From positions 1-47,324 of the forward strand of contig SICQ01000002.1 in assembly GCA_009691385.1 (NCBI GenBank): a stretch of 47,324 bases of DNA. Direction: 5' to 3'. Positions within the stretch are counted from its first letter, which is position 1. Each line of letters opens with the position of its first letter. The stretch comes from Candidatus Ryanbacteria bacterium. Lineage in GTDB: Bacteria; Patescibacteriota; Minisyncoccia; Ryanbacterales; GWA2-47-10b. The notes under the pieces were generated by a model that saw nothing but the letters and a program-made list of their open reading frames with translations, did not search any database and was not told the DNA's origin. Positions 6,267 to 30,961 of this stretch are shown here, piece by piece. A program made the translations under genes and the position numbers.

Positions 6267-6281
6267 CAGTATAATAAAATA

Positions 6282-14370: not shown

Positions 14371-14398
14371 CCCCACACCCTGGGGCTCTTTTTATTTT
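14369..14398 (+). terminator. intrinsic terminator
   Basis: AGCCCCA-caccc-TGGGGCT followed by CTTTTTATTTT. Confidence 0.5.
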
Positions 14399-16795: not shown

Positions 16796-16809
16796 ACAAT
16801 CCGTCAGAA

Positions 16810-17844
16810 TTAAATCGTCCGCTTGTGCAGGGCGACATCGTTAAAATACTCGACAAAAATCACCGCGAGAGGAATCGCAATAATAATACCCACCGCGCCA
16901 GCGACCGTACCACCAACCAAAAGCGCGATGATCGCCAAAAGTGGGTGGACGCCCACCGTCTTACGCACTACCTGCGGATAGATAAGATGATTTTCCATTT
17001 GCTGTACCAAAAAATAAATACCCGCGACAAGCAGACCTAAGAGCGGGTCTTTGATGGCGGTCACCGCAATGGCAGGGATAGCGGCCATGACAGGACCGAA
17101 ATACGGAATGATTTCAAAAATTGCTGATAACACCGCAAACAAAAACGCATGCTCGACACGCAATACCGTAAGCATAATAAATACGAGCACGCCCACCAAA
17201 AGACCGAGTAAGAGCTGACCTTGGAGCCACCTGCCTATCTTGCGTTGCGAGCGCGCCCAGAGATCAAGCGCGTACTCTTCGTATTCTTTGGGCGTGACGA
17301 TACGAAGTACATCGGCAATCCCATCTTCTTGCGCTGTCAGATAAAATGAAATGATGACGATAAAGCCAAACGAGAGAACACTAGAGAAAAAGGTAGATGA
17401 AAAGCTAAAAAAGCCGCTCACTGCCCCTTGTATATATTGATCAGCGGTGAGTGCGGAATGACGGATCGCCTCAATGACAAAATCAAACGAAAGGAATGGT
17501 ACCTTTTGCTGAAAGCCGACAAGTGCTGTCTCAATAAGCGTAGGAAGCCGCGAGAAAAATATTTGGAAATCACCCGCGAGTGGTGGTACCAAAAGATAGA
17601 AAATGCCAACTACAAAGACCATTCCTGAAAGATAGATCAGCAATGTAGCAAGTACGCGTGGGAAACGCCACCTGATAAACCATTGCACGAGGGGCTCTAC
17701 CGCTGACGCGATAACAATCGAGACCAAGATGATCATCAAGATGTCGCGAACAACCCACAGAAAAGCAATCCCGAGTACTACCAAAGCGAGGCGAACCAGA
17801 GTGCTTGTTGAAATATCAATCGATGCGCGAGGAGGACGGCTCAC
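16810..17844 (-). CDS. AI-2E family transporter (PerM-like permease)
   Basis: 344 aa, about 8 TM. Typical AI-2E layout with IPYFGPVMAAIPA motif. Confidence 0.8.
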   Translation of the reverse strand: MSRPPRASIDISTSTLVRLALVVLGIAFLWVVRDILMIILVSIVIASAVEPLVQWFIRWRFPRVLATLLIYLSGMVFVVGIFYLLVPPLAGDFQIFFSRLPTLIETALVGFQQKVPFLSFDFVIEAIRHSALTADQYIQGAVSGFFSFSSTFFSSVLSFGFIVIISFYLTAQEDGIADVLRIVTPKEYEEYALDLWARSQRKIGRWLQGQLLLGLLVGVLVFIMLTVLRVEHAFLFAVLSAIFEIIPYFGPVMAAIPAIAVTAIKDPLLGLLVAGIYFLVQQMENHLIYPQVVRKTVGVHPLLAIIALLVGGTVAGAVGIIIAIPLAVIFVEYFNDVALHKRTI

Positions 17845-19115
17845 AGTGCTTTTTTAAGTATTTGCTCGTATGGACCTTTCTCGAGTTTGGGGCCAATCAT
17901 GGAGAGATACAATCTGTCGCGACGGAAAAGAGTTTTGGCGACCCGCGCAATATCTTCGCGCGTAACAGCATCAACTTTTTTGATAAGTTCGTCGGGCTTT
18001 TTTATTTTGCCGAGCATAATTTCTTGCGTACCTAAAAATGACGCGACTTCATCAGTTGATTCGAGTGAAATCGCAAGGTGCCCCTTGATATTGTCTTTCG
18101 CGCGTTTGAGTTCTTCTGCGGTAGCACCGCCCTTCTTGATCTTATCAAGATGGCTGACAATTCGCTCGACGACTTCAACGCTGCGCTCATGTGGCACGCC
18201 TGCATATGCGCCGAAATAACCCGTTTTGAGATACGCGTCGTGCCCTGCGCGAATAGCATACGCAAGCCCGTGCTTGCCACGAATATCAGCCCAGAGACGC
18301 GAGCTCATATAACCACCCAAAATGGTGGAGAGTACATCAGCTACTACGCGATCTTTGCTCTCGAGCGGATAACCAAGAGCACCGACCACAATATGCGACT
18401 GATCGGTATTTTTCTCAAAAAGGCGCATCCGTGGGCCCGCCTTGGGCTCTTTGAATGCTGCTGCTTTTACGGGTGTGCCAACACGCAATTTTCCAAACGC
18501 TTTCTCAATCTTGCGAAGTGTCTCTGTCTCTTTGATATTGCCTGCCACGGTCACCACAGTATTGCGCGCAACATATTGGCTCTTCCAATACTTGAGAAAA
18601 TCAGATCGTTTGATCGTGCGAATATTCTCAGCGGTACCAATCACATCCCATCCATACGCATTATCACCGTACACAAGCTCTTCGAAAAGCGACCATACAT
18701 AGCGCCGCGGATCATCCCAATACATTTTCATTTCTTCTAAAATAACGCCTCGCTCGCGGTTGATCTCTTCTTCCTTCAAAAGCGCGTTTTGCAAAATATC
18801 AGAAACAAAAAGAAGCGCTAGATCGAACTGCTTTGCATCTACTTTGATCCAATAGCCCGTCTCTTCTCTGGTGGTAAACGCGTTGTGAATAGCGCCTACC
18901 GAGTCGAGCAACCGATCAAGCTCACCGGGCTTGGGATATTTGGTAGTACCCTTGAAAAACATGTGTTCAAGAAAATGTGAAAGGCCGCTGATGTCTCTAG
19001 CCTCGTAGTTTGAGCCGGTGCCTACCAATACCAGAATAGTAATCGTCTGGGTTGATTCCATAGGGGCGACGATTGCGCGCAGACCATTTTTGAACTTCTT
19101 TTCAGTAAATTTCAT
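17841..19115 (-). CDS. M16-family zinc peptidase (pitrilysin/insulinase-like)
   Basis: 424 aa. Inverted zinc motif HFLEHMFFKGT. Confidence 0.85.
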   Translation of the reverse strand: MKFTEKKFKNGLRAIVAPMESTQTITILVLVGTGSNYEARDISGLSHFLEHMFFKGTTKYPKPGELDRLLDSVGAIHNAFTTREETGYWIKVDAKQFDLALLFVSDILQNALLKEEEINRERGVILEEMKMYWDDPRRYVWSLFEELVYGDNAYGWDVIGTAENIRTIKRSDFLKYWKSQYVARNTVVTVAGNIKETETLRKIEKAFGKLRVGTPVKAAAFKEPKAGPRMRLFEKNTDQSHIVVGALGYPLESKDRVVADVLSTILGGYMSSRLWADIRGKHGLAYAIRAGHDAYLKTGYFGAYAGVPHERSVEVVERIVSHLDKIKKGGATAEELKRAKDNIKGHLAISLESTDEVASFLGTQEIMLGKIKKPDELIKKVDAVTREDIARVAKTLFRRDRLYLSMIGPKLEKGPYEQILKKAL

Positions 19116-19175
19116 AGCATCATCATATCACAAAAACCCCGAAAAGAAAGCGGGCGCATATCGGCAAAAAAATGC

Positions 19176-20471
19176 CTAGATGAGCTTTTCTCGAAACAAT
19201 GCCGCGACCTCCGAGATCGCCACACGCTCTTGTTTGGCGGTATCACGATCGCGAACAGTTACCGTGCCGTCTTCGAGTGTTTGGTAATCAATCGTCACAC
19301 ACCATGGCGTGCCAATCTCATCTTGCCTACGGTACCGCTTGCCGATGTTGCCGATATCATCCCAGCGCACCATAAACTCGCGGCTGAGCACATCAAATAC
19401 TTCTTTTGCCTTTTCGGTAATATGCTCTTTGTTGGATACGAGTGGAAAGACTGCGACAGTTATGGGTGCGAGCCGTGGATGCAGACGCAAGACTACCCGT
19501 TTGTCCCCCGCGAGCTCGTCTTCATCATACGCATCAATCATAAACGCCAGAAACGCGCGATCAACGCCAACTGACGGCTCAATGACATTGGGTACAAACC
19601 CTGCGTCAGATTTGATAAAGTCATCCCCCGTCCAGTGATATTCGGGGAAATGATTTTTGAGATCAAAATCGGTACGATTAGCCACGCCTTCGAGCTCCGA
19701 GAAACCATCTTGTGAAAGGCCAAAACGATATTCGATATCGGTCGTCGCCTTTGAATAGTGTGCAAGCTCGTCGCCTGCGTAATCACGAAAGCGTAAATTT
19801 TCTTTTTTAATGCCGAGATTTAAAAACCACTGCATGCGCATAGCGCGAATCTCGCCAAAATATTGGTCGGCATCTTTGGGATCGCAAAAATATTCGAGCT
19901 CCATCTGCTCGAACTCGCGCGAGCGAAACACAAAATTGCGTGGGGTAATCTCGTTGCGAAACGCTTTGCCGATCTGAGCGATACCAAACGCAAGCTTGGG
20001 ATGAAACGCGTCAACGACATTTTTAAAATTGATAAAAATACCCTGCGCGGTCTCAGGGCGCAAATACGCCACCGCTGATTCATCCTCAATCGCGCCCGCA
20101 TGCGTCTTGAACATCATATTGAATTGGCGTGATTCGCCGAGCGCTCCTCCACATTCAGGGCATTTGGTGTCTTCTATATGATCAGTGCGAAAACGGCGTT
20201 TGCATTTTTTGCATTCAACAAGCGGATCGGTAAAGTGATCAGTATGTCCTGACGACTGCCAAACCTTAGCGCTCGAAATAATCGCTGAATCGAGAGGGAA
20301 AATATGCGGTTTGCGCATAGACTTCCACCATTCGCGTTTGATATTTTCTTTGAGAAGAACTCCTAACGGACCATAGTCCCAAGTACCCGCAAGACCGCCG
20401 TAGATGTCGGATCCGGGAAAGACAAAACCTTTGCGTTTTGCGAGCGATACGATTGTTTCGAGTGAAGTCAT
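19176..20471 (-). CDS. glyQS: glycyl-tRNA synthetase (alpha2 type)
   Basis: 431 aa. Class II motifs (YLRPETAQG, FRNEITPR, GVDR), zinc-like CKKCKRRF...CPECG insertion. Confidence 0.95.
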   Translation of the reverse strand: MTSLETIVSLAKRKGFVFPGSDIYGGLAGTWDYGPLGVLLKENIKREWWKSMRKPHIFPLDSAIISSAKVWQSSGHTDHFTDPLVECKKCKRRFRTDHIEDTKCPECGGALGESRQFNMMFKTHAGAIEDESAVAYLRPETAQGIFINFKNVVDAFHPKLAFGIAQIGKAFRNEITPRNFVFRSREFEQMELEYFCDPKDADQYFGEIRAMRMQWFLNLGIKKENLRFRDYAGDELAHYSKATTDIEYRFGLSQDGFSELEGVANRTDFDLKNHFPEYHWTGDDFIKSDAGFVPNVIEPSVGVDRAFLAFMIDAYDEDELAGDKRVVLRLHPRLAPITVAVFPLVSNKEHITEKAKEVFDVLSREFMVRWDDIGNIGKRYRRQDEIGTPWCVTIDYQTLEDGTVTVRDRDTAKQERVAISEVAALFREKLI

Positions 20472-20508
20472 AGAAAAAACTTAGCACGAGGAAGCCGTTA
20501 TGCCAACG

Positions 20509-22404
20509 CTACTCTTCTACTTCCCCTCCTTCGCGGAATGCCCGCGGATCATCACGGAGAGCGGTAGTGGCGCGGGCTGTTGTCTGGGTAATCGTAATAT
20601 TGGCAAACGAATCACGCCCTTCAAATCGTGCTGCGGACACGAGTTCTGCGGGCTGTCCTACTTGCGGGAGCGAGGGGGTAAACGCTATCTGAAAAGCCAC
20701 TTCGCGCGCCCGATCACTACTACCGGTACCGGCTGGGATACTGCCCGGGAGCCACGATATCTCGCGCGTTGCTTCATCAAAAGTAATCGGCGCGCCACTT
20801 GGCGGATCGACCACACCCCTCCAGCGTATATATGATGGCAATGTGGCACGCACCACGCCATCTGTCAGATCGTTGGTCGCGTTGGTCACCGACCATACGA
20901 TAAGATAGGTCGATTCCTGCCCTACACGCGGAGGAAAGGGCCCCGAATTTTGTACGCGCGAATCATAAAAATATCCTTTTTGAGAAAACGAGGCGCGGGT
21001 CGCAAGTTTGTAGGTCACTCGTTCTTCGCCTGAAATATCTACCCCTTCATATCCTGACGGCAATTCGCGTGTCTGCATGGTAGAACGAAACACGAGCGTA
21101 GGATTGCGTACGCTAATAGTTTTTTTGGTTGTGATGCTAAATCTAAATGCACCACTCTCGCCCGGATCCACCACTAAGAGTTCGGGTATGCGCCCTGGCA
21201 CCCAGCGTAAAGAATTGCGATCTTGGTCAAACTCGCCACGGTCACTAATAAGTGTCTTGATATCAAACGCTTCGCCTTCAAACGTGACTTCGACCGTAGC
21301 ATTGGAAACGGCAACGGGAAGATTATTTTGCCATTCAAGAACGGCTTTGATCGAAGTGCCAGCAAGCAACACTCCCGTATCAAGATCATCTTCGGCATTA
21401 ATCGTAAGCTTGGTCACCAACAGCGGCGGTGTAATAGCAAATGTTTTTTCAGACGAGGTGAATATATCAAATTCGTTCTTTGTGCGATCATACACGCCGA
21501 CCTTTGCTTTCATAGATTGTGGTGCTATCGAATCTTTGATGCGTCCCTTGACGGAAAGTTTGAAGGTATCGCCCTTGCCAAGGTCTCCTATGGTCCAGAT
21601 GGTATTGCCTTTGGTCGGCTTTATATTTGATGAAATAAATTCAAATGCGTCAGGGTACATCATTTCAACCGATATACCACGAAATGGCGTCTCGGCACTC
21701 GATACGAGCGAGAGCTGCGCTTCAATCTGCTGACCTGCCTTAAGCTCTTTTGGCAATAGCAACTCAACGCCCAAGAGCGACCCTTTGACGGGAGACTCGT
21801 AGGCAGTTTCTTTGGCGAGCAACACCGACGAATCGCGTGGACGATATTCGATCTTTACCTGTCCTTTTAAAATTTCATCTTGCGCGCCAAACACAATAGC
21901 TGAAAACAGTTCTTCTTTTTTATCACCTGGATTGATGGTGCCAAGCTCTCGCCGTTCAGGTCGTAAACCACCTTTCATATAATCACCTGAGAGCGGCTGC
22001 GACATAGGTGGATAGGCAAAAACAAGTACTGCTTTATCAAGCGCGATATCGTTTTTGTTTTCGTACACCACACGCCATACGAGTTTTTTGCCCGCGATAG
22101 CGTCATCAGCGCTCTCAACCGTGAGGTTAATATTTTTACGGGTATCAACGCCGAGAACAGACCATTTCCCTGAAATCAGTAAATAGCCCACCATCACAAT
22201 AGCGATAGTCCCCAATCCTCCACCAATACCCCACCACAAAAGTTTACGAAGAAATTTTTGCATAGAATCTTCCTCGACTACGGCGTCCTCCTTCCATGAC
22301 ACTGGAGCTTGCGTATTGTTTCTGCGAAGACGCCACGAATGTTCGCGGTCTTCAAACCCCTCGCCCTTTTTAAAAAGCCGCCGCCTTAGATCATCAAGCG
22401 CCAT
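20509..22404 (-). CDS. membrane-anchored surface protein with repeated beta-sandwich (DUF11/CARDB-like) modules
   Basis: Start at ATG 22404 (MALDDLRRRLF), because the longer track ORF would overlap recO. One TM (LLWWGIGGGLGTIAIVMVGYLLI) followed by about 550 aa of repetitive beta-rich sequence. Confidence 0.7.
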   Translation of the reverse strand: MALDDLRRRLFKKGEGFEDREHSWRLRRNNTQAPVSWKEDAVVEEDSMQKFLRKLLWWGIGGGLGTIAIVMVGYLLISGKWSVLGVDTRKNINLTVESADDAIAGKKLVWRVVYENKNDIALDKAVLVFAYPPMSQPLSGDYMKGGLRPERRELGTINPGDKKEELFSAIVFGAQDEILKGQVKIEYRPRDSSVLLAKETAYESPVKGSLLGVELLLPKELKAGQQIEAQLSLVSSAETPFRGISVEMMYPDAFEFISSNIKPTKGNTIWTIGDLGKGDTFKLSVKGRIKDSIAPQSMKAKVGVYDRTKNEFDIFTSSEKTFAITPPLLVTKLTINAEDDLDTGVLLAGTSIKAVLEWQNNLPVAVSNATVEVTFEGEAFDIKTLISDRGEFDQDRNSLRWVPGRIPELLVVDPGESGAFRFSITTKKTISVRNPTLVFRSTMQTRELPSGYEGVDISGEERVTYKLATRASFSQKGYFYDSRVQNSGPFPPRVGQESTYLIVWSVTNATNDLTDGVVRATLPSYIRWRGVVDPPSGAPITFDEATREISWLPGSIPAGTGSSDRAREVAFQIAFTPSLPQVGQPAELVSAARFEGRDSFANITITQTTARATTALRDDPRAFREGGEVEE

Positions 22405-22408
22405 AGTG

Positions 22409-22978
22409 CTAGTATAGCATGTGATTAGCGCGCAGTATCCCCTCGATACCTTCTTCAAATGCTTCGCGCTCATTGGAGTCAGCAAAAAGACTATCATCTG
22501 ACCTCTCTGTGATAAACGCGCGCGCCTTTGGAGTAAAAAATTTTCCCTGCTCTGGAGTGTCTGGCAAAAAACCACTAACCTCTAGTACTCGGAGTTTAAA
22601 GCGCATCTCGTCAGAAAAATTGCGCACGGCGCGTATATCCAATACCGCATCCCATAAATCAAGATCGGGCTCTTCGTCTCCCGTCATGCGCAACATAAAA
22701 TCGGCGCATCGTTTATGATATGGCGTAGCCCCGCTCTCTAAAGCCCCTTCTGATTCTGCATCAATCACACGCCACACGGTACTGCCTCGCGTCAACATCA
22801 GACGCAGTGGCGTAAAAAGAGTCAGATGCCCACGCAATTTTGATTTGGCAAGACGCACACCGGTAGCAACCGCACTCACCCGACCCAAGTCTTTGGTAAA
22901 AAAAGTAAGATACACATCAGCCTCCCCCCGCTCGCGAGATGCGAGCACAATGGCATCCGTACCGTAATACCCATTCAT
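22409..22978 (-). CDS. recO: DNA repair protein RecO (short form)
   Basis: 189 aa. N-terminal OB-fold signature (DAIVLASRERGEADVYLTFFTKDLGRVSAVATGVR). Confidence 0.8.
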   Translation of the reverse strand: MNGYYGTDAIVLASRERGEADVYLTFFTKDLGRVSAVATGVRLAKSKLRGHLTLFTPLRLMLTRGSTVWRVIDAESEGALESGATPYHKRCADFMLRMTGDEEPDLDLWDAVLDIRAVRNFSDEMRFKLRVLEVSGFLPDTPEQGKFFTPKARAFITERSDDSLFADSNEREAFEEGIEGILRANHMLY

Positions 22979-22980
22979 AT

Positions 22981-25900
22981 TTAGACCTTTTCGACAGAGA
23001 CGATGCTGGGGCCTTTGTTGGTATCGGCGACTTCTAAGCGCTTGGCACGCGTGCCTTTTTTGATAGCCGCGAGCGCTGTGGGCGAGAAAGTACCTGTAAT
23101 AATGAGTGATACGGTATCGAGTGGCTGAAGACCCGCCTTTTTACGAGCATCTTGCGCGAAACGGATAAGCTCGCGCACCTCGCCTTCTTCTTTGAGTTCA
23201 GGGGAAATGACCATGTCGAGTGCCGCGTCTTCTGTTAGTTTTTTATTTACTACAATGCCTTTGACATTGAGCTCTTCTTTTAAAATATCAAGGAGTGACG
23301 CGTCGCGCACAGTGATACCCTTTACCATCAAAGATGCGAGCGGCTGGCGTACTTTGATACCGGCGCGCGCACGAAGCTCAAGCCCACGCGCGGCAAGCGC
23401 GCGCACTTCGTCCATGCCGCTCACAAGTGCTTTGTTATATGCCTGCTTTTTATGCCAATCTTCCAGATGCACGCTCTCGCGTTTACCACCTGCCGCGCGA
23501 TATATGATCTCTGCGGTAAATGGCACAAAGGGCGCTGCGAGTACTGCGGTCTGCAAAAGCGTTTTGCGTAAAATCTCAACACCCTCGCCTGAGCGCATCC
23601 GTTCGCGCGACCGGCGCACATACCAGCGCGAGATATCATTGCCCACGAAATCTTCGATAAGGCGCGCCGCACCCACCACATCATACGCATCCATGCGACG
23701 CGCGACCTCGGCGCTCACCTGAGCAGATTTCGCCTCCATCCACAAATCAAGGGTATTTTTGCGTGATGTTTTTTTGGCGACTGGTTTATACATCTCATAG
23801 AAATTGAGTGTATTGAGAAAAAGATCGATAAATGTTCGTTTTGATTTTTCAAGATCAGAAGTATCAAAGAGCTTGGAATCACCTGGCTGATTGATAGTAA
23901 AGAAATACCAACGCACCGCATCGGCGCCATATTTTTCAAAAAGATCCATGGGTTCTACCACATTGCCTTTTGATTTCGACATTTTCTTTCCTTCTGCATC
24001 CAACAAGTGCCCGAGTGAAATAACATTTTTATACGGCGCTTTTTTGCCCAAAAGCGTCGAGACTGCGAGCAGCGTATAAAACCACCCTCGTGTCTGATCG
24101 ATCGCCTCAGAGATAAAGTCAGCGGGGTAGGCCGTGCCCTTGTCGATACGGGCTTTATTTTCAAACGGATAGTGTTGTGCAGCAAATGGCATCGCGCCCG
24201 AATCAAACCATACATCAGCGACCTCGGGCGTGCGATCCATCTTTGTAAGACACCCCGAACACATCACGGGAAAATTATCGATAAACGGTTTATGAAGATC
24301 CGTCTCGCCAAACTCATTGCGCGGCACCGCCACGGGTACGATGCGATGCACATCAGCATTTTTGAGATATTTGGCCTGTGAAAACTCATCTGGCTGTTGT
24401 GTGCCACGCATGATCGCCTCTAAAAACCAGAGCGGATCTCCATGACCTACGATCAAAATCTTTTTCTTTTTGTGCAATGTCTCGAGTCTTTGAAAAAATC
24501 GATAACTGCGCTTTTTGACATCAGCCCACGACTCGCCACCCGGAAACGGGTGTTTGAGGATTTCTTCGGCGGTATGCTTTTTCCAAATGTCTTCGACAGC
24601 ATCGCCCTCATAATCTCCTGGATTGTGCTCGCGCAAGTCAGCATCGTACAAGACCGGCACGCGAAGTTCGCGCGCTAAAATCGCCGCCGTCTCGCGCGTA
24701 CGGGTGAGGTCTGATGAAATAATCAATTGAATACCTGATTTTTTGAGAACCGCTGCTGCTTTTTTTACCTCCGTCTTACCGCGTGGCAAAAGCCCATACG
24801 AATTATTGAGTTTGGCGGTTGCGATACCGAGTAAATTATTTTTCGCAAACCCGTGACGCATCAAGAAATAAGTGTTGGTAGATTTTGGTGCGCGCTCTGA
24901 TATCTCGGCGATTGAGCCAAAAACATCCCTGCGATTACATTCTTTGCATGACCATACCGGTAGCGGCGTGCCCCAATAGCGCTCTCGAGAAAATGCCCAG
25001 TCTTTGTCCTCGCGAAGCCATTGGCCAAAGCGACCATCACGCAAATGCGCCGGATGCCAGTTGATCGATTTGTTTGCTTCTACCATCTTGGGACGCACCG
25101 CACTGACCTTCACCCACCATGACTTGCGTACACGATAGATAAGCGGCGTATCGCATCGCCAGCAAAATGGATAATCATGCTCGTAGAGCGCCTCGCGAAA
25201 TAACAGCCCTTTTTGTATCAAATCTTTTACTACAAACGGATCAGCTTCTTTGACAAACATCCCTTCCCACTGCGGTACTGCTTTGGTAAATTTACCTGCG
25301 TCATCAACCGTAACAAAAGTCGGCAATCCTTCGCGCTTGCCTACCTTTAAGTCATCGTCGCCGAACGCGGGCGCGATATGCACGATACCGGTACCCTCTT
25401 GGTCAGTGATAAAAGTGCCTGCAACCACACGATACGGAATATCAGGCGCGGGATAGGGCGGATCATACTCAAGACCCAAAAGCTTTGAGCCCGGCTCGCG
25501 CCAGAGAGGTTCGAGCCCGGGGAAGAGTTTTGCCGCAAGCGACCCGAGTACGATAAGCTGCTCGCCCCGGTCATCAATAGTCACATATTCAAGCTCGGGG
25601 TGTACGGCTGCTGCCACATTGGCCGGTAGTGTCCACGGCGTTGTAGTCCATACCAAAAGTGATGCTCTGCGTGTTTTGAGACGAAAGCGCACAAATACTG
25701 ATTGATCTTTTACTTTTTTATATCCTTGCGCGAGCTCGTGAGACGACAATGCGGTACCGCACCGCGCGCACCACGGCACCACCTTGTCATCCTGATACAG
25801 CAATTTGCGCGCATTAAACTCTTTGACGATATGCCAAAGTGATTCAATGTATGAATTTTTATAGGTGACATAGGGATTTTTGGTATCAATCCAATACCCC

Positions 25901-26280
25901 ATGCGCTCGGTGACTTTCTCCCACTGGCTTGTATACAGCCAGACGGATTCTTTACATTTGCGATTAAACGGTTCGATACCGTACGCCTCGATATCTTGTT
26001 TCAATTTAAAACCGAGTGCTTTCTCAACAGCGATCTCGACAGGCAAACCATGGGTGTCCCAACCCGCACGGCGCTCAACCAAAAAACCTTGCATAGTCTT
26101 ATAGCGCGCGATGACATCTTTGAACGCACGGGCTTCTACATGATGCAACCCCGGCATGCCGTTTGCCGTAGGTGGCCCCTCAAAAAAAACAAAGCGCTTT
26201 GCCTGAGCGCGTTGCTTAATGCTTTTTTCAAAAATATTTTTCTGGGTCCAGAATCCAAGGACGCCACGCTCATCTCGCAT
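22981..26280 (-). CDS. ileS: isoleucyl-tRNA synthetase with an inserted histidine-phosphatase-like domain
   Basis: 1099 aa. HIGH-type (PPTANGMPGLHHV), CP1 editing (TTTPWTLPAN), KMSKS (KKMSKSKGN). An RHG/His_Phos-like insertion at aa ~465-660 is described in findings. Confidence 0.95.
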   Translation of the reverse strand: MRDERGVLGFWTQKNIFEKSIKQRAQAKRFVFFEGPPTANGMPGLHHVEARAFKDVIARYKTMQGFLVERRAGWDTHGLPVEIAVEKALGFKLKQDIEAYGIEPFNRKCKESVWLYTSQWEKVTERMGYWIDTKNPYVTYKNSYIESLWHIVKEFNARKLLYQDDKVVPWCARCGTALSSHELAQGYKKVKDQSVFVRFRLKTRRASLLVWTTTPWTLPANVAAAVHPELEYVTIDDRGEQLIVLGSLAAKLFPGLEPLWREPGSKLLGLEYDPPYPAPDIPYRVVAGTFITDQEGTGIVHIAPAFGDDDLKVGKREGLPTFVTVDDAGKFTKAVPQWEGMFVKEADPFVVKDLIQKGLLFREALYEHDYPFCWRCDTPLIYRVRKSWWVKVSAVRPKMVEANKSINWHPAHLRDGRFGQWLREDKDWAFSRERYWGTPLPVWSCKECNRRDVFGSIAEISERAPKSTNTYFLMRHGFAKNNLLGIATAKLNNSYGLLPRGKTEVKKAAAVLKKSGIQLIISSDLTRTRETAAILARELRVPVLYDADLREHNPGDYEGDAVEDIWKKHTAEEILKHPFPGGESWADVKKRSYRFFQRLETLHKKKKILIVGHGDPLWFLEAIMRGTQQPDEFSQAKYLKNADVHRIVPVAVPRNEFGETDLHKPFIDNFPVMCSGCLTKMDRTPEVADVWFDSGAMPFAAQHYPFENKARIDKGTAYPADFISEAIDQTRGWFYTLLAVSTLLGKKAPYKNVISLGHLLDAEGKKMSKSKGNVVEPMDLFEKYGADAVRWYFFTINQPGDSKLFDTSDLEKSKRTFIDLFLNTLNFYEMYKPVAKKTSRKNTLDLWMEAKSAQVSAEVARRMDAYDVVGAARLIEDFVGNDISRWYVRRSRERMRSGEGVEILRKTLLQTAVLAAPFVPFTAEIIYRAAGGKRESVHLEDWHKKQAYNKALVSGMDEVRALAARGLELRARAGIKVRQPLASLMVKGITVRDASLLDILKEELNVKGIVVNKKLTEDAALDMVISPELKEEGEVRELIRFAQDARKKAGLQPLDTVSLIITGTFSPTALAAIKKGTRAKRLEVADTNKGPSIVSVEKV

Positions 26281-26323
26281 TTTTTAACTCTAATCGAAAA
26301 ACGGTCTTTTTTCAAATGCGCAC

Positions 26324-26352
26324 TTGCGAAAACGGTCACCGTTCTCTAGGAT
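26324..26352 (+). promoter_or_regulatory. possible promoter with embedded palindrome upstream of the HtrA-like gene
   Basis: TTGCGA (26324-26329), 17-nt spacer, TAGGAT (26347-26352). The spacer contains the palindrome AACGGTcACCGTT (26331-26343). Confidence 0.3.
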
Positions 26353-26388
26353 AGACGCTAGACAACGACCCTCGACAAGGAGGTAATA

Positions 26389-27597
26389 ATGTACTGGAGA
26401 AAGAACTGTGGAATCGTAGGATCTCTAACCTTCACACTCGCGTGCTTCGCCGCGACAGCCGCGGCGAAGCAACCGACCAAACAGGAAATCGTCGAGCACT
26501 ATGCGAAAGCGGTCGTGCTCGTCGAGCGCTTGACCGTCGGCGAAAGCGTGAAAGTCCAAGGGTCGGGCGTATTCTACAGCCCCACCCGCATCGTCACCAA
26601 CGCCCATGTGATCGGCGACATCCCCGAAAACCGCGAGACAGTCGAACGCGTGTACATGGATACGGATCTCTCACGCGCCGTGTTCTGGGTGACCTTTCTA
26701 GGCAAGAAGTACAAGGCACGCCTTGTAGGACGCGACCCCGATCTTGACCTTGCAATCCTCGAGATCGACCACGCTGTAGACGGCGTGCGCCCTGCGCGGT
26801 TCGGTGACTCCGGCAAGTGCGCGGCCGGACACGAAGTCTATGTGTTCGGCAACCCGCTCGGCATGGAAAACTCTGTGACTTCGGGTATCGTCTCGGGCAA
26901 GGAGCGGCGCATTGGCATGCTCAGCTACGAAGAGCTCATCCAGACAGACGCGCCTATCAATCCTGGTAATTCAGGTGGTGCACTCGTCTCGATGGAGACC
27001 GGCGAGCTGCTTGGTATCCCCAACTCCAAGATTCCCTTCGCTGACAATATGGGCTTTGCCGTACCGATCAATCTGTTTCGCGACATCGAGCCACAGCTCC
27101 AAGGCACCATCAAACATAGCTGGCTCGGCATCTCATTCCCCGGACCCAAGTTCACCGATTCTGAAGGTTTTCAGGGATTGAAAGCAATCCACGAGCTCAC
27201 GGGTGCCAATCACCTTGAGGTACTCGACGGTATCAGACGCGAGGTGTTTGATAAAGACAAAGGCGGGGTACTCGTCACCAATGTGATGCGGGCGCATGTC
27301 GATAAGCTCTACGCGATACTCGCCTCCGATGGCGAGAACGCCGCCGCTGAAGCGACTGCCCGTACGCCACCCGCGCTCAAAGCAGGATTCGAGCTCGGTG
27401 ATGTCATCACCAAATTCGGAGAGTTTGAGATCAAGCGCGATCTCGACCTCATCCGCGCCATCTTCCGCAGTAAACCTCGCGAAACACTACCCGTGCGCAT
27501 AGTACGTTTCGACAGTACAGACAAGCGTACCGAAGTCGTACTCATGGTCACCCCCATCGTCCGCAATCCAGACGGCGTGGCGGGTGGCTTCTACTAA
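26389..27597 (+). CDS. secreted trypsin-like serine protease, HtrA/DegP-like with C-terminal PDZ-like region (GC-rich)
   Basis: 402 aa. Signal peptide; catalytic triad contexts TNAHV, DLAILEI, GNSGGALV. AAGGAGG SD at 26377-26383. Confidence 0.85.
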   Translation: MYWRKNCGIVGSLTFTLACFAATAAAKQPTKQEIVEHYAKAVVLVERLTVGESVKVQGSGVFYSPTRIVTNAHVIGDIPENRETVERVYMDTDLSRAVFWVTFLGKKYKARLVGRDPDLDLAILEIDHAVDGVRPARFGDSGKCAAGHEVYVFGNPLGMENSVTSGIVSGKERRIGMLSYEELIQTDAPINPGNSGGALVSMETGELLGIPNSKIPFADNMGFAVPINLFRDIEPQLQGTIKHSWLGISFPGPKFTDSEGFQGLKAIHELTGANHLEVLDGIRREVFDKDKGGVLVTNVMRAHVDKLYAILASDGENAAAEATARTPPALKAGFELGDVITKFGEFEIKRDLDLIRAIFRSKPRETLPVRIVRFDSTDKRTEVVLMVTPIVRNPDGVAGGFY

Positions 27598-27616
27598 CAT
27601 GTGCGCAAAAAGCACA

Positions 27617-27648
27617 AGAGCGAGCCCCACGGCTCGCTCTTTTTCTTT
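27617..27648. terminator. intrinsic terminator between convergent genes
   Basis: GAGCGAGCC-ccac-GGCTCGCTC followed by TTTTTCTTT. An A-rich run precedes it, so it may act in both directions. Confidence 0.6.
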
Positions 27649-27668
27649 GTTCTATAATTTCTAAAATA

Positions 27669-28364
27669 TTATTCAGTGATCACTACCTCGGTCATCGCAT
27701 CACCTTGTGCAACCTTCAGGAGAACATCCATGCCCTTGGTCACGCGACCGAATACGGTATGACGACCATCGAGATGCACTTGCGCACTCTCGGTGATGAT
27801 GAAGAACTGGCTGCCGTTGGTATTGGGACCACGGTTTGCCATGGCGATAGCGCCGACATCGTTTTTCATTGATTTGAGATCGTAGTTGTACTTATATCCT
27901 GATGCCTCGAGCCTTGAGATCATGTCTGCTGGCACACCGAGTACTTTTGGATTGATCTCATCTTCAAACTCATAGCCGGGGCCACCCGTACCGTTACCTG
28001 ATGGGTCACCACCCTGTGCCATAAAGCCAGCGATCACACGGTGAAAGACAAGGCCGTTGTAAAATCCTTTTTTACTAAGTGTGACAAAGTTTGATACAGT
28101 CTTTGGCGCTACCTCGGGATACAGCTCAAGCTCGATATCACCTTTTTGTGTTTTGATTGTTGCTTTCACAGTTTTTCCATTAAATTGCATAATCTCGGGC
28201 CCTGCCATGACTTCTGGAGGCGGTGGCACGGTCTGATCAGTCAGAGAAGCAGTACCTGCATCATTTGTCGCAGGCTTGCTCGTGCCAAGCCAAACAACTC
28301 CCCCGAACACGACGAAGAGTGCGAGAAGTCCGATAATAACATTGCGTGGTTGTTGCATATCCAT
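27669..28364 (-). CDS. cyclophilin-type peptidyl-prolyl cis-trans isomerase, membrane-anchored
   Basis: 231 aa. N-terminal TM; [21 protein letters not shown] motifs. Confidence 0.9.
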
Positions 28365-28403
28365 GGAGAAATACTAAACTATTTTTTTTGCAGACGCAAC
28401 TGT

Positions 28404-30050
28404 TTACATCGTATCAGGGGTAGAGATACCCATGAGCTTACATTGCCTCTGCATGGTCTCACGAAAGAGCGATACGAGAGCGAGGCGCGCATATTCAAGA
28501 TCAGCGCGCTCACCTATCACATGCGTCGTTTCATAAAAACGCGTGAAGGCGCGAGCAAAATCAAGCGCAAAGCGTGAAAGACGCTGGAGCTGAAAATCTT
28601 CGGCAGTTTGCGAAATCGCATCGGGCAACGCCAAGACCATCTTGATGAGTGTGAGTTCGGCCTCAGTCTCTAAGATAGGCCATGCCACTTTTTTGTAATT
28701 TATCTTGCGTTTACCTTGATATCCGGCCTTTTTGAGGATGCTCGATGCGCGGGCGTGTGCGTACTGTATATAGTAGACAGGATTGTCTTTTGACTTGGCG
28801 CGTGCCAAATCCATATCAAAGGTCATGGCTGATCGTGGCGCGTACTGCAGCATGAAAAACCTAAAGGCGTCCTTACCTACGGTATCGAGTAGCTCTTCGG
28901 CGGTGACAAAAGTGCCCTTGCGCTTGGCCATCGATACCACCTGCCCGTCTTTTTTGAGCGTCACAAGACCGTGAACCACAATTTTGAGATTTTCTTGCGG
29001 GAATCCAAATGCATCGGCAATCGCACGAAGTTTTGGTATATGACCTTCATGCCCATCGCCCAATTCATCTACTACGAGATCCGCGCGCTTAAACTTTTCT
29101 GCGTGATATGCAATATCACCCGCAAAATATACATAGGTGCCATCACTCTTGATGACGACCGATTCGCGCTCGCCCAAATTGTCATCCTTGGGTGTAAACC
29201 ACACCGCGCCTTCTTTTTTGGTCAGCAATCCTTTTTTATCGAGCAGGGCGAGCGCGCGCTTGGTCTTTACCTCGAGATCACTCTCAGCGACAACTTTGTC
29301 AAAGACAATACCCATGCGCTTTGCGAGCGCCAAGTTATCTTTGAGCATGCCTGCGAGCGCAGCCTTGGTAATGCGTTCTTTATACAGATCGGGTTTTTGT
29401 AAAATCTTGGCGCCGTATTTTTTATGCACGGCCTTGCCCATCTCTTGGATGTACTCGCCCTGATAACCATCTTCTGCGAGCACTGACTGCTCTCCGCACG
29501 CAATCATGTACCAATGCCATAGTGAGTCAGCAAAGCGGCCGATCTGCGCGCCCGCGTCATTGTGAAAATATTCACGCACTACTTTGTATCCGCGATCTTT
29601 CAGTAAGTTCGCCACTACATCGCCGATGGGTCCTGACCGCGCGTTGCCAATATGCATAGGGCCCGTAGGATTGGCTGAAATATATTCTACCGATGCCGTA
29701 CCAAGCTTGGGCTTTGGTTCTGACGCAAACGAATCACGCAAGATCTCGATCAAGTATTGTTTGTCAAAATAAAAATTTAAAAAGCCAGGCGAGGCCGCCT
29801 CAATCTTACTAAAAACAGGCAGGTGTTTTTCTTTGATGCGGATTGCGATATCTTCGGCAACTGCCATAGGCAGGCGCTTCTCAACTTTGGCGCGTACGAG
29901 CGCGATGTTTGATGAGTAGTCTCCCCTTGCCTCGCCTTGGGCGGGCCGGCCTTCTTGGCGTTCAACCGAAAAAGGCACATCAGATCCTATCTCGCGATGC
30001 AAAATGTCTTCTATATAGGTACGAAGATTGCGTTCCATGTCAGTAAGCAC
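28404..30050 (-). CDS. argS: arginyl-tRNA synthetase
   Basis: 548 aa. ANPTGPMHIGNARSG (HIGH region), SMAKRKG (KMSK-like), C-terminal DALR anticodon-binding region. Confidence 0.95.
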   Translation of the reverse strand: MLTDMERNLRTYIEDILHREIGSDVPFSVERQEGRPAQGEARGDYSSNIALVRAKVEKRLPMAVAEDIAIRIKEKHLPVFSKIEAASPGFLNFYFDKQYLIEILRDSFASEPKPKLGTASVEYISANPTGPMHIGNARSGPIGDVVANLLKDRGYKVVREYFHNDAGAQIGRFADSLWHWYMIACGEQSVLAEDGYQGEYIQEMGKAVHKKYGAKILQKPDLYKERITKAALAGMLKDNLALAKRMGIVFDKVVAESDLEVKTKRALALLDKKGLLTKKEGAVWFTPKDDNLGERESVVIKSDGTYVYFAGDIAYHAEKFKRADLVVDELGDGHEGHIPKLRAIADAFGFPQENLKIVVHGLVTLKKDGQVVSMAKRKGTFVTAEELLDTVGKDAFRFFMLQYAPRSAMTFDMDLARAKSKDNPVYYIQYAHARASSILKKAGYQGKRKINYKKVAWPILETEAELTLIKMVLALPDAISQTAEDFQLQRLSRFALDFARAFTRFYETTHVIGERADLEYARLALVSLFRETMQRQCKLMGISTPDTM

Positions 30051-30597: not shown

Positions 30598-30952
30598 GGG
30601 AGTGACAGGCCTCGACGGGGTCTCGACTCTTTGAAAATCAGGCAAGAGCAGGTGTGGTCACCTCTTTCAAAAATGCCACACGCCAATAAGTGCAAACTTA
30701 TTTAACCGCCAACCGGCAATGGCTTTTGCCTAAGCCGTAGGCGTTTCTCTGGCCACTATGCGCCAGAGCATCGGTCCGCAACCGCTGAGTGCGTGGAATG
30801 CCGGTGTTATAATCCTCAGCTAGTGCGCATCATGCTCGATACACGCGCGCGAAACTAATCGAGCAAACTCTCTGGCTTCGTGCTTGAGTACGCCTGTATA
30901 AATTTTTATTGAGAAGAACTTTCGGACGGCGGTTCGATTCCGCCCACTTCCA
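30598..30952 (+). ncRNA. ssrA: tmRNA (ssrA), one-piece
   Basis: 5' GGGAGTGACAGGCCTCGACGGGG pairs with the 3' CACTTCC acceptor (one G-U). T-arm GGCGGTTCGATTCCGCC. Discriminator A; CCA not fully encoded. Candidate tag frame 30692-30733. Adjacent to smpB. Confidence 0.85.
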
Positions 30953-30961
30953 CAAAAAAAT

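What the first reader, a model, noticed from the sequence alone, without database searches (positions are those of the whole stretch)
24301..24888. Isoleucyl-tRNA synthetase carries an inserted, apparently intact histidine-phosphatase (PGAM-like) domain
In other IleRS enzymes (e.g. Thermus type) only about 20 residues separate the WGTPLPVW...C-x2-C segment from the D-x-H-K/R-P-x-ID...C-x2-C...DVWFDSG segment. Here those segments are separated by about 190 aa (aa ~465-660). The insert contains the full histidine-phosphatase branch-1 signature in the correct order. The motifs are FLMRHGFAKNN (RHG at nt 24850-24858), SSDLTRTRETA, LREHNPGDYEG and ILIVGHGDP (His at 24442-24444). The reading frame is continuous and the flanking synthetase motifs are intact. 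This therefore looks like a domain insertion, not an assembly chimera or frameshift. I know of no described aaRS with an embedded His_Phos domain. Speculative roles: hydrolysis of a phosphorylated nucleotide by-product (e.g. ApnA), tRNA 3'-phosphate end healing, or inhibitor detoxification.
Basis: partly seen in the sequence, partly recalled or inferred. Interest (0 to 1): 0.7.

Follow-up and report, generated by a model that had tools for sequence, protein, structure and literature searches.

The report
Phosphatase domain nested inside isoleucyl-tRNA synthetase
A complete, apparently active histidine-phosphatase domain sits inside the catalytic core of this candidate-phyla-radiation bacterium's isoleucyl-tRNA synthetase; in relatives the same phosphatase is either nested in the same way or encoded as a separate gene directly in front of ileS, which points to an undescribed partnership between a phosphatase and tRNA charging.

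Summary
ORF 22981-26280 (-) is a 1099-aa type-2 IleRS (TIGR00392, 826 bits). Residues 465-660 (nt 24301-24888) are a full His_Phos_1 domain (E=1.9e-31), lying between the two CxxC halves of a zinc knuckle in CP2. It is not an artefact. All 120 closest IleRS clusters, all from Patescibacteria, carry it, and R475, H476, R527, E/D551, E583, R591 and H613 are invariant or nearly so.

New here: ~190-aa free-standing orthologues lie immediately upstream of insert-less ileS. In 80 of 80 metagenomic loci holding this subfamily, the phosphatase is either inside IleRS (55) or adjacent to it (25), and the adjacent genes usually overlap start on stop. The same subfamily is nested at a different loop in ValRS (32 of 120 clusters), and 2-4 catalytically intact copies occur per synthetase.

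Its closest structural relatives are small-molecule phosphatases (PspA, PhoE, CobC), not true mutases. No paper found describes it.

Best reading: an active phosphomonoesterase that works alongside class Ia synthetases. The substrate is unknown; a small molecule is more likely than a tRNA end. Verdict: real, conserved, a new variant of a known kind, interest about 0.7.

The parts
22981..26280 (-). ileS: type-2 isoleucyl-tRNA synthetase with nested phosphatase, 1099 aa plus stop codon
   Evidence: ORF. TIGR00392 scores 826 bits against a cut-off of 621. Best PDB relatives are 8c8w/8c8v IleRS2 and 1ile. AF2 model: pLDDT 92.9, pTM 0.86.
24889..26280 (-). IleRS aa 1-464: first half of the HUP/Rossmann core, the CP1 editing domain (WTTTPWTLP, invariant W211-W216) and CP2 up to the first half of the zinc knuckle
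   Evidence: Query 6-464 aligns to 8c8w 16-478. Invariant columns are listed.
26140..26151 (-). GLHH (aa 44-47): the GXHH variant of the class I HIGH signature
   Evidence: Sequence. GxHH in the 121-sequence alignment. Meaning of the motif is from PMC10485003.
24937..24948 (-). First CxxC of the CP2 zinc knuckle (C445, C448)
   Evidence: Cys in 120 of 121 homologues. Coordinates.
24301..24888 (-). Nested histidine-phosphatase (His_Phos_1) domain with its linkers, aa 465-660. The Pfam envelope is aa 472-647 (nt 24340-24867).
   Evidence: PF00300 E=1.9e-31 in the whole protein and 8.3e-33 alone. Domain model: pLDDT 88.9, TMq 0.84-0.85 to PspA 4ij5/4ij6, 0.83 to PhoE 1h2e.
24850..24858 (-). RHG motif: R475 and the nucleophile H476 (G477 follows)
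   Evidence: R475 and H476 present in 121 of 121. Intact in nearly all of 296 domain copies.
24700..24702 (-). R527, the second phosphate-binding arginine (SSDLTRTRETA motif)
   Evidence: Present in 121 of 121.
24628..24630 (-). E551 (LREHNPG motif), the position of the general acid in branch-1 enzymes
   Evidence: A carboxylate in 121 of 121 (76 Glu, 45 Asp). The assignment to the acid role rests on established knowledge of the family (E89 of E. coli dPGM).
24508..24534 (-). GGES...R segment: E583 and R591, conserved core residues of the family
   Evidence: E583 in 120 of 121, R591 in 121 of 121.
24442..24444 (-). H613, the second catalytic histidine (ILIVGHGDPLW, the subfamily signature)
   Evidence: Present in 121 of 121. 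The signature is shared with the free-standing orthologues.
24250..24261 (-). Second CxxC of the zinc knuckle (C674, C677)
   Evidence: Cys in 120 of 121. Coordinates.
22984..24300 (-). IleRS aa 661-1099: DLHKPFID, the DVWFDSG helix (W691), the second HUP half with KMSKS (aa 766-770, nt 23971-23985), the anticodon-binding domain and the type-2 C-terminal domains
   Evidence: Query 660-1033 aligns to 8c8w 486-869. Anticodon_1 and DUF5915. KMSKS.
22409..22978 (-). recO, the conserved downstream neighbour of ileS in the syntenic block
   Evidence: RecO_N at 2.9e-15. The same order is seen in L001-L006 and in many of L087-L166.
28404..30050 (-). argS, the conserved upstream member of the block ArgRS-[His_Phos]-IleRS-RecO
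   Evidence: DALR_1, tRNA-synt_1d and Arg_tRNA_synt_N. Synteny.

Best explanation
The insert is a genuine, catalytically competent histidine phosphatase of the compact PhoE/PspA/CobC type. It is nested in the CP2 zinc-knuckle loop of a type-2 IleRS, about 27 residues before helix alpha3, whose Trp lines the isoleucine pocket. It is the fused form of a two-gene module (phosphatase gene plus ileS) that is conserved in Patescibacteria.

Inferred chemistry, from the family:
1. The substrate's terminal phosphate is held by R475, R527, R591 and H613.
2. H476 attacks to form a phospho-histidine intermediate, while E551 protonates the leaving group.
3. Water then releases phosphate.

Inferred biology:
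- The phosphatase works together with the synthetase rather than merely travelling with it.
- What selection keeps is proximity and 1:1 (or higher) stoichiometry with IleRS or ValRS, not a fixed geometry.
- It most likely removes a small phosphomonoester that is produced at, or interferes with, class Ia charging. Nucleotide-like species such as 5'-, 2'- or 3'-AMP are my first candidates, at perhaps 0.2 on their own.

Shown here: the domain's identity, its intact catalytic set, clade-wide conservation, exclusive genomic linkage with ileS, and independent nesting in ValRS. Inferred: catalytic activity, functional coupling and the class of substrate.
For: Identity and integrity:
- Domain and host identity.
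- All 120 nearest IleRS clusters carry PF00300.
- The catalytic set is invariant across 121 IleRS and essentially all 296 domain copies, including every copy in 2x and 4x proteins apart from one.
- The insert evolves faster than the body (39% against 58% mean pairwise identity), but the two identities are correlated (r=0.74), so they are co-inherited.

Linkage:
- Free-standing ~190-aa orthologues with the same signature sit directly upstream of insert-less ileS.
- In 80 of 80 metagenomic loci the subfamily is inside IleRS (55) or adjacent to it (25).
- In 21 of 26 adjacent cases the phosphatase stop codon and the ileS start codon lie within -10 to +11 nt of each other.

Independent nesting:
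- ValRS carries the domain at a different loop, in 32 of 120 ValRS clusters.
- Some IleRS carry a second copy at a further site, or tandem copies.

Small-molecule type:
- The nearest sequence and structural relatives are PspA, PhoE, a riboflavin-pathway phosphatase, GpgP and CobC (TMq 0.81-0.85, rmsd 2.1-2.7 A), and the cap helices are retained.

Not the glycolytic mutase:
- dPGM and CobC equivalog cut-offs are not met.
- The ValRS::His_Phos locus has two iPGM genes next to it.
Against: - No activity or substrate has been measured, and nothing in the sequence names the substrate.
- Gene order is generally well conserved in these small genomes, so part of the ileS linkage could be inherited synteny rather than functional coupling.
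- Some Patescibacteria IleRS have neither an insert nor a phosphatase gene within 5 kb (L007, L011, L012, L028, L081, L083, L086). The partnership is therefore dispensable, or the gene lies elsewhere in those genomes.
- No obvious phosphomonoester is specific to Ile or Val charging. Hydrolysing AMP would waste adenylate.
- I could not obtain model coordinates, so the distance and orientation of H476 relative to the synthetic site and the tRNA path are unknown.
Confidence: 0.4

Rival explanations
1. tRNA acceptor-end healing. The tethered phosphatase removes a blocking 3'(2')-phosphate or 3'-pyrophosphate from tRNA(Ile) or tRNA(Val) bound to its own synthetase, restoring a chargeable CCA-OH end. 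This would be a built-in repair or anti-toxin activity.
For: - The linkage is exclusive to tRNA-charging enzymes: IleRS in 80 of 80 loci, with independent nesting in ValRS.
- The insertion sites differ. This is compatible with a long, flexible macromolecular substrate.
- Enzymes that pyrophosphorylate tRNA CCA ends exist and can be isoacceptor-specific (10.1101/2021.04.30.441581 and PMC11559606, found).
- A His_Phos domain fused to a nucleic-acid enzyme has a precedent in the family named 'bifunctional RNase H/acid phosphatase', NF005567 (weak hit).
Against: - All close structural neighbours are capped small-molecule phosphatases.
- The domain retains the cap helices. By established knowledge of the superfamily, members that act on macromolecules tend to have open sites.
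- There is no match to any PADLOC defence model.
- No toxSAS or other tRNA-modifying gene was seen in the neighbourhoods examined.
- It is unexplained why only Ile and Val isoacceptors would need such repair.
Confidence: 0.2
2. Hitch-hiking housekeeping phosphatase. The domain is an ordinary metabolic enzyme, for example a phosphoserine, sugar-phosphate or nucleotide phosphatase. It happened to lie next to ileS in an ancestral operon and was captured into permissive surface loops. It gains only co-expression and has no mechanistic link to aminoacylation.
For: - The closest relatives are metabolic phosphatases.
- Gene order (ArgRS-X-IleRS-RecO) is strongly conserved in these genomes anyway.
- An ArgRS-His_Phos C-terminal fusion (P0196) looks like a trivial read-through of adjacent genes.
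- Several CPR IleRS lack the partner.
Against: - Moving a neighbouring gene into an internal loop of an essential enzyme is not a simple read-through event.
- Three or more different nesting sites occur in two different synthetases, and tandem arrays of 2-4 intact copies also occur.
- None of the 80 sampled loci shows the subfamily away from ileS.
- Tight start/stop overlap implies coupled translation.
Confidence: 0.25
3. Protein phosphatase. The domain reverses inhibitory phosphorylation of the synthetase itself, as Hip-type kinases do to other aaRS, or of a translation partner.
For: - The histidine phosphatase superfamily includes protein phosphatases (SixA, PGAM5, Sts-1; established knowledge).
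- There is a weak sixA hit, E=4e-5.
- Tethering to the target would make sense.
Against: - The structural neighbours are small-molecule enzymes.
- The sixA score is far below its cut-off, 23.5 against 74.5 bits.
- No kinase gene is seen in the conserved neighbourhood.
Confidence: 0.07
4. Non-catalytic module. The fold is kept as a structural or tRNA-binding appendage, and the phosphatase chemistry is irrelevant.
For: The insert evolves faster than the synthetase body. Class I synthetases often recruit insertions for tRNA binding (for example INS in ARD2; 10.64898/2026.02.03.703510).
Against: Every catalytic residue is invariant over sequences that are only about 39% identical overall. This also holds in the free-standing proteins and in each copy of the multi-copy arrays.
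Confidence: 0.03
5. Artefact: an assembly chimera, a frameshift or a gene-calling error created the apparent fusion.
For: None found.
Against: - The reading frame is continuous.
- Base composition is uniform.
- The identical architecture occurs in more than 120 protein clusters and 55 further loci from independent projects (NCBI, ENA, JGI, Logan), on contigs of up to 539 kb.
- The insert length is tightly distributed at 195-212 aa.
Confidence: 0.005

Closest known systems
Type-2 isoleucyl-tRNA synthetase (IleRS2), e.g. Priestia megaterium IleRS2 (PDB 8C8U/8C8V/8C8W) and Thermus thermophilus IleRS (1ILE)
   Same: - Same fold and domain order: TMt 0.78 to 8c8v and 0.90 to 1ile.
- TIGR00392 scores above its cut-off.
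- Shares the CP1 editing motifs, KMSKS, a type-2 C-terminus (DUF5915), and the GXHH form of HIGH described for hyper-resistant IleRS2 (PMC10485003).
   Different: It carries a ~195-aa phosphatase domain where IleRS2 has a loop of about 8 residues in CP2. No solved or described IleRS has this.
Compact branch-1 histidine phosphatases: PspA phosphoserine phosphatase (4IJ5), PhoE/YhfR (1H2E), CobC alpha-ribazole phosphatase (6E4B, 3HJG), GpgP Rv2419c (4PZ9)
   Same: - Same fold and size: TMq 0.81-0.85, rmsd 2.1-2.7 A.
- Same catalytic residues, RHG/R/E/H.
- 22-26% identity.
   Different: - It does not reach any equivalog cut-off: CobC 77 against 163 bits, dPGM_arch 68 against 225, PspA 58 against 350.
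- It has its own signature, SHGDPLW.
- It is always nested in or adjacent to a class Ia synthetase, whereas the known enzymes are stand-alone metabolic proteins.
CP1 editing domain of class Ia synthetases (a catalytic domain nested in the Rossmann fold)
   Same: The architectural principle is the same: a complete second catalytic domain inserted into a connective peptide of the HUP core of IleRS, ValRS or LeuRS.
   Different: CP1 is universal in these enzymes, hydrolyses mis-acylated tRNA, and has a different fold. The phosphatase is lineage-specific, lies in CP2 (IleRS) or after alpha3 (ValRS), and performs phosphoryl rather than acyl chemistry.
IleRS with an extra N-acetyltransferase domain (NCBIfam NF040702, 'ileS_w_GNAT')
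   Same: It is a precedent, recognised by curators, for an IleRS that carries an additional enzyme domain.
   Different: The added domain is of a different family. The window's protein scores 295 bits against that model's cut-off of 1999, so it is not a member. I found no paper on it.
Bifunctional RNase H / acid phosphatase (NCBIfam NF005567; Rv2228c-type)
   Same: A CobC-like His_Phos domain is fused to an enzyme that acts on nucleic acid.
   Different: That protein is an end-to-end fusion with RNase HI, not a nesting. The score here is 65 bits against a cut-off of 326.

Membership tests
Histidine phosphatase superfamily, branch 1 (Pfam PF00300 His_Phos_1) | Profile match above the curated gathering score | tested here: met
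   109.7 bits in the whole protein and 114.1 bits for the insert alone, against a cut-off of 21.7. Profile positions 2-179 of 194 are covered.
Histidine phosphatase superfamily, branch 1 (Pfam PF00300 His_Phos_1) | Catalytic core: the RHG nucleophile His with its Arg, a second Arg, a carboxylate acid and a second His, in that order | tested here: met
   R475-H476, R527, E551, H613, plus E583 and R591. They are invariant or conservatively substituted (E/D) in 121 IleRS and in 296 domain copies.
Histidine phosphatase superfamily, branch 1 (Pfam PF00300 His_Phos_1) | The alpha/beta fold of the family | tested here: met
   Domain model pLDDT 88.9. TMq 0.84-0.85 to 4ij5/4ij6 and 0.83 to 1h2e.
Histidine phosphatase superfamily, branch 1 (Pfam PF00300 His_Phos_1) | Phosphomonoesterase or mutase activity through a phospho-histidine intermediate | not testable with these tools
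   This needs a recombinant enzyme assay with an H476A control.
Cofactor-dependent phosphoglycerate mutase (dPGM; TIGR01258, NF038349 and related equivalogs) | Score above the equivalog cut-off | tested here: not met
   dPGM_arch 68-71 bits against 225. pgm_1 30 bits against 81.7. GpmB 51-56 bits against 261.
Alpha-ribazole phosphatase CobC (TIGR03162) | Score above the equivalog cut-off | tested here: not met
   77-82 bits against 162.9.
Isoleucine-tRNA ligase (TIGR00392) | Score above the equivalog cut-off, spanning both halves of the enzyme | tested here: met
   826 bits against 621.4, in two stretches that flank the insert.
Isoleucine-tRNA ligase (TIGR00392) | Class I signature motifs (HIGH or its GXHH variant, and KMSKS) and the CP1 editing motif | tested here: met
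   GLHH at aa 44-47, KMSKS at aa 766-770 and WTTTPWTLP at aa 211-219. All are conserved in the alignment.
Isoleucine-tRNA ligase (TIGR00392) | Isoleucylation of tRNA(Ile) | not testable with these tools
   It is the only IleRS in the window. Activity is inferred only.
Acquired mupirocin-resistance IleRS MupA/MupB (NF000257, NF000258) | Score above the 'exception' cut-off | tested here: not met
   759 and 773 bits against 1900. It is a relative of type-2 IleRS, not MupA or MupB.
IleRS with GNAT domain (NF040702) | Score above the cut-off; presence of an acetyltransferase domain | tested here: not met
   295 bits against 1999, and no GNAT Pfam hit.
Intein or other mobile intervening sequence | Hint or homing-endonuclease domains; splice-junction residues | tested here: not met
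   Pfam finds only His_Phos_1 in aa 465-660. The insert is a conserved enzyme domain that co-evolves with its host.
Known anti-phage defence components (PADLOC-DB) | Match to any defence-system model | tested here: not met
   There were no hits for the insert or for the free-standing orthologue P0128.

The most novel reading that the evidence does not exclude
The phosphatase is a third catalytic site of the synthetase, acting on its own tRNA. It would strip a 3'-phosphate or 3'-pyrophosphate block from the CCA end of tRNA(Ile), or of tRNA(Val) in the ValRS version, immediately before charging. Such blocks are installed by toxSAS-type enzymes or left by nucleases. Candidate-phyla-radiation bacteria would then have a built-in, isoacceptor-specific tRNA-end repair or anti-toxin function, a kind of aaRS quality control not known anywhere.
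Probability: 0.15. Interest if true: 0.9.

Novelty: new variant of a known kind. Interest (0 to 1): 0.72.

Why it matters
Aminoacyl-tRNA synthetases are among the best-studied enzymes, and their accessory domains have repeatedly revealed new biology: editing, signalling and resistance. Here a whole radiation of bacteria keeps a catalytically intact phosphatase physically or translationally coupled to IleRS, and in another lineage to ValRS. No current model of aminoacylation needs a phosphatase.

If the coupling is functional, it exposes an unknown step or hazard in tRNA charging. Candidates are a phosphorylated inhibitor, nucleotide by-product handling, or blocked tRNA ends. That step would be directly testable with one recombinant protein and an H476A mutant.

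It also gives a clean natural example of one functional module existing in three forms: an adjacent gene, a nested domain, and tandem nested arrays. Finally, it matters for annotation: pipelines call these proteins 'class I tRNA ligase family protein', and they may mis-score the embedded domain as a PGAM or PhoE gene in metabolic reconstructions of CPR genomes.

Tried and rejected
1. The search for related loci with the broad 56-sequence alignment A2 failed because no stretch was conserved enough.
2. A GTDB genome scan with an insert-deleted IleRS returned mostly Bacillota IleRS2 and only a few Patescibacteria, because the tool chose peptides specific to the query. It was useful for outgroups and for the 'none' state, but it is not a taxonomic survey.
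3. An NJ tree of 296 domain copies did not separate free from embedded forms: there were 90 pure clades. An NJ tree of the IleRS body showed phylogenetic signal (13 Fitch changes against 25.7 in shuffles), but the states are interspersed on short branches. I make no claim about the number or direction of insertion or fission events.
4. I tested whether the phosphatase correlates with the GXHH variant of HIGH. It does not: both motif forms occur in the embedded, adjacent and none states.
5. PADLOC gave no hit. PHROGs gave only a family of unknown function, phrog_12933.
6. Eight literature searches, plus term searches within three papers (two on IleRS), found no description of the architecture.
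7. Glycolytic mutase idea: rejected as the main reading. The equivalog cut-offs fail, the nearest structures are phosphatases, and iPGM genes sit beside the ValRS::His_Phos gene.
8. The ArgRS-His_Phos fusion (P0196) was at first taken as a third independent host. It is more simply explained as a read-through of adjacent genes, since there is a 4-nt gap between them in L003. It is a single cluster.
9. I could not measure the distance from H476 to the synthetic site, because model coordinates and PAE are not returned by the tools.
Full report
**1. The observation**

The minus-strand ORF 22981..26280 is uninterrupted and encodes 1099 aa.
- Pfam finds tRNA-synt_1 (1.4e-111), Anticodon_1 and DUF5915. 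Between the two halves of the synthetase it finds His_Phos_1 (PF00300) at aa 472-647, with E=1.9e-31 and 109.7 bits against a cut-off of 21.7.
- The stretch named in the finding (24301-24888, aa 465-660) scores 8.3e-33 on its own.
- NCBIfam identifies the host as isoleucine-tRNA ligase: TIGR00392, 826 bits against a cut-off of 621.
- The quoted motifs and their coordinates are exact. RHG is at 24850-24858 and H613 at 24442-24444.
- Against P. megaterium IleRS2 (8c8w), residues 6-464 and 660-1033 align to 16-478 and 486-869. About 195 residues therefore replace a loop of about 8.
- Base composition is uniform across the junctions.

**2. Not an artefact, and not a one-off**

- All 120 best IleRS relatives carry PF00300 in their precomputed annotation. 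They are 46-90% identical and 1100-1212 aa long. They come from NCBI, ENA, JGI and Logan assemblies, on contigs of up to 539 kb, and all are Patescibacteria (Ryan-, Nealson-, Wildermuth-, Niyogi-, Taga-, Giovannoni-, Uhr- and Pacebacteria).
- The insert is 195-212 aa long in all of them.
- In the 121-sequence alignment, R475, H476, S523, R527, R591 and H613 are invariant. E583 is present in 120 of 121. Position 551 is always Glu or Asp. The four flanking Cys (C445, C448, C674, C677) are present in 120 of 121.
- The insert evolves faster than the synthetase body (mean pairwise identity 39% against 58%). The two identities are correlated (r=0.74), so insert and body are inherited together.
- The synthetase itself looks functional. 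GLHH (a GXHH variant of HIGH), KMSKS and the CP1 editing motif are all conserved.
- AlphaFold2 models the whole protein confidently, with pLDDT 92.9 and pTM 0.86, and 88-97 across the insert. The model matches IleRS2 and T. thermophilus IleRS with TMt 0.78-0.90.

**3. Where the domain sits**

Brkic et al. give the HUP core of PmIleRS2 as residues 40-168 and 513-632, separated by CP1 and CP2 (PMC10485003). The insert maps to PmIleRS2 478-486. That places it in CP2, inside a Cys4 zinc knuckle, about 27 residues before helix alpha3 (DVWFDSG). From my own knowledge of the 1ILE structure, the Trp of that helix (our W691, T. thermophilus W518) lines the isoleucine pocket. The tools do not return model coordinates, so I could not measure the distance from H476 to the synthetic site.

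**4. What kind of histidine phosphatase it is**

- No equivalog cut-off is met: CobC 77 bits against 163, dPGM_arch 68 against 225, PspA 58 against 350, and pgm_1 30 against 82.
- By sequence, the nearest solved structures are PspA phosphoserine phosphatase (6e-9), PhoE, CobC, GpgP and TIGAR.
- A domain-only model (pLDDT 88.9) superposes best on the same compact ~200-aa phosphatases. These are PspA (TMq 0.84-0.85, rmsd 2.1-2.2 A), PhoE, a riboflavin-pathway phosphatase, GpgP and CobC. All rank ahead of true mutases.
- 'PGAM-like' should therefore be read as 'small-molecule phosphatase type'.

**5. The key new result: a phosphatase-ileS module in three forms**

An exhaustive search of 1.84 billion representative proteins with the insert alone gave 673 hits at E<1e-10. 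I classified the best 150:
- 83 are IleRS, full-length or fragments, with the domain embedded.
- 65 are free-standing proteins of 300 aa or fewer, mostly about 190 aa, with the same signature (...YFxLRHG...LTxKG...SSDxxRxxQTA...RLRExNxG...GESWxDVxKR...ILIVSHGDPLW...).
- 2 have other architectures.

The free-standing genes lie immediately upstream of an ileS whose product lacks the insert. They sit in the same syntenic block as the window, ArgRS-[His_Phos]-IleRS-...-RecO-surface protein-GlyRS-M16 peptidase-AI-2E-...-MetRS.

A systematic scan of metagenome contigs with a sub-alignment of the subfamily returned 80 loci. In all 80 the phosphatase is either inside IleRS (55) or a separate ORF next to an insert-less ileS (25). 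In 21 of 26 adjacent cases the phosphatase stop codon and the ileS start codon are within -10 to +11 nt of each other, often as a 4-nt overlap. That spacing is typical of translational coupling.

Some Patescibacteria IleRS have neither an insert nor a phosphatase gene within 5 kb. Bacillota IleRS2, which is 43-47% identical to the window's IleRS, never showed the subfamily.

**6. Independent nesting events**

- The same subfamily is embedded in valyl-tRNA synthetase. P0271 scores 948 bits on NF004349 against a cut-off of 704.
- The ValRS insertion is at a different loop, after the DTWFSSG helix rather than before it.
- 32 of the 120 closest ValRS clusters have it and about 88 do not.
- One ValRS fragment has at least four tandem copies.
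- Several IleRS have two copies. These are either in tandem or at a second site, in the loop that opens the anticodon-binding domain (P0147, P0161, P0260).
- Virtually every copy keeps the full catalytic pattern. RHNSREGERH or conservative variants occur throughout, and only one copy of P0124 deviates.
- An ArgRS with a C-terminal His_Phos (P0196) is a single cluster. It sits in the syntenic position where ArgRS and the phosphatase gene are normally 4 nt apart, so I treat it as a read-through fusion.

**7. Evolutionary order**

Neither the domain tree nor the IleRS-body tree separates the embedded, adjacent and none states cleanly (both are NJ trees without support values). There is phylogenetic signal, with 13 Fitch changes against 25.7 in shuffles, but the states are interspersed. 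I therefore cannot say whether nesting happened once or in which direction. A supported ML analysis is needed.

**8. How it most likely works**

Shown:
- An intact branch-1 catalytic site under purifying selection.
- Exclusive genomic linkage to ileS.
- Independent physical fusion to two class Ia synthetases at three or more sites.
- Multi-copy arrays.

Inferred, from established knowledge of the family:
- H476 attacks a terminal phosphate held by R475, R527, R591 and H613.
- E551 acts as the general acid.
- The phospho-histidine intermediate is then hydrolysed.

The nesting sites differ and a free-standing form works in trans. What is selected therefore seems to be proximity and stoichiometry, not a fixed channel. 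Because the fold is the capped, small-molecule type, I favour a small phosphomonoester that arises at, or interferes with, class Ia charging (0.4). Nucleotide-like species are the first candidates.

The rivals are:
- tRNA acceptor-end healing (0.2). It is made plausible by toxSAS enzymes that pyrophosphorylate CCA ends with isoacceptor specificity (10.1101/2021.04.30.441581 and PMC11559606).
- A hitch-hiking metabolic phosphatase (0.25).
- A protein phosphatase (0.07).
- A non-catalytic module (0.03).
- An artefact (<0.01).

A role as the glycolytic mutase is unlikely. The equivalog cut-offs fail, and the ValRS::His_Phos locus sits beside PGK, enolase and two iPGM genes.

**9. Comparison with what is known, and novelty**

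- The host is a member of IleRS (type 2) and the insert is a member of PF00300.
- It is not a member of dPGM, CobC, PspA, MupA/MupB or the GNAT-bearing IleRS family. All of these were tested and not met.
- The architecture resembles the CP1 editing domain in principle, as a catalytic domain nested in a connective peptide. It also resembles curated oddities such as 'ileS_w_GNAT'.
- Eight full-text searches, plus term searches within two large IleRS phylogeny and structure papers, found no mention of a phosphatase in or beside IleRS or ValRS.
- Database pipelines do see the domain. One JGI name reads 'valyl-tRNA synthetase/broad specificity phosphatase PhoE'. The sequences are therefore public, but the feature appears undescribed.
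- I rate it a new variant of a known kind, namely a multi-domain aaRS. A categorically new function is possible if the tRNA-end reading is right.

**10. Verdict**

The finding is larger than reported. It is a clade-wide phosphatase-synthetase module with adjacent, nested and arrayed forms in IleRS and ValRS of Patescibacteria. The function is unknown but testable. Interest 0.72.

Noticed in passing
window 26140-26151 (-): The IleRS has GLHH in place of the canonical HxGH signature. This GXHH swap is reported to give mupirocin hyper-resistance in type-2 IleRS (PMC10485003). Among CPR IleRS both GxHH and HxGH forms occur, with no link to the phosphatase state.
   Followed up: partly
window 10814-30050 (-): Five aminoacyl-tRNA synthetase genes lie within 20 kb: LeuRS 10814-13189, MetRS 15212-16795, GlyRS 19176-20471, IleRS 22981-26280 and ArgRS 28404-30050. 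Only IleRS carries the phosphatase. The order ArgRS...IleRS-RecO-surface protein-GlyRS-M16 peptidase-AI-2E-MetRS is conserved in related contigs.
   Followed up: partly
L167 8001-11423 (ValRS P0271); P0121; one search list: Valyl-tRNA synthetases of another Patescibacteria lineage carry the same phosphatase subfamily nested at a different loop (after the DTWFSSG helix). 32 of the 120 closest clusters have it. One fragment (P0121) has at least four tandem intact copies.
   Followed up: partly
P0147/P0275 (1419 aa), P0161 (1419 aa), P0260 (1468 aa): These IleRS variants have two intact phosphatase domains. The copies are either in tandem in CP2 or split, with one in CP2 and one in the loop that opens the anticodon-binding domain. 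In P0161 the CP2 zinc-knuckle cysteines are absent.
   Followed up: partly
L001/L002 8001-10070 (P0196): An ArgRS has a C-terminal His_Phos domain and is followed directly by recO, with no ileS in between. It is probably a read-through fusion of neighbouring genes after ileS moved elsewhere. It is a single cluster, seen in two assemblies of what looks like one sample.
   Followed up: partly
L150 5382-6576; L121 1527-2171 (-) and 2254-5907 (+): One locus has two tandem free-standing phosphatase genes in front of an insert-less ileS. Another has an IleRS with the embedded domain plus an extra free copy on the opposite strand.
   Followed up: no
L167 1-5951: Directly upstream of the ValRS::His_Phos gene lie PGK, enolase and two adjacent cofactor-independent phosphoglycerate mutase (iPGM) genes. 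That genome therefore does not need the nested domain as its glycolytic mutase.
   Followed up: no
window 30598-30953 (+): A tmRNA gene with tag peptide ANLFNRQPAMAFA lies just beyond argS. In related contigs smpB occupies the neighbouring position.
   Followed up: no
window 6183-6267 (+): tRNA-Leu(CAA) lies inside the mechanically listed ORF 6156-7127. The real start of that ORF, if it is a gene, is probably downstream.
   Followed up: no
window 20509-22575 (-) and 22409-22978 (-): The 688-aa DUF11-type surface-protein ORF, as listed from its first GTG, overlaps recO by 167 nt. Its true start is probably further downstream. Relatives have a DUF7619 protein at this position.
   Followed up: no
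window 24301-24888 (-); P0128: Both the insert and the free-standing orthologue match a phage protein family of unknown function (phrog_12933, E about 1e-20). Related histidine phosphatases therefore also occur in phage genomes.
   Followed up: no
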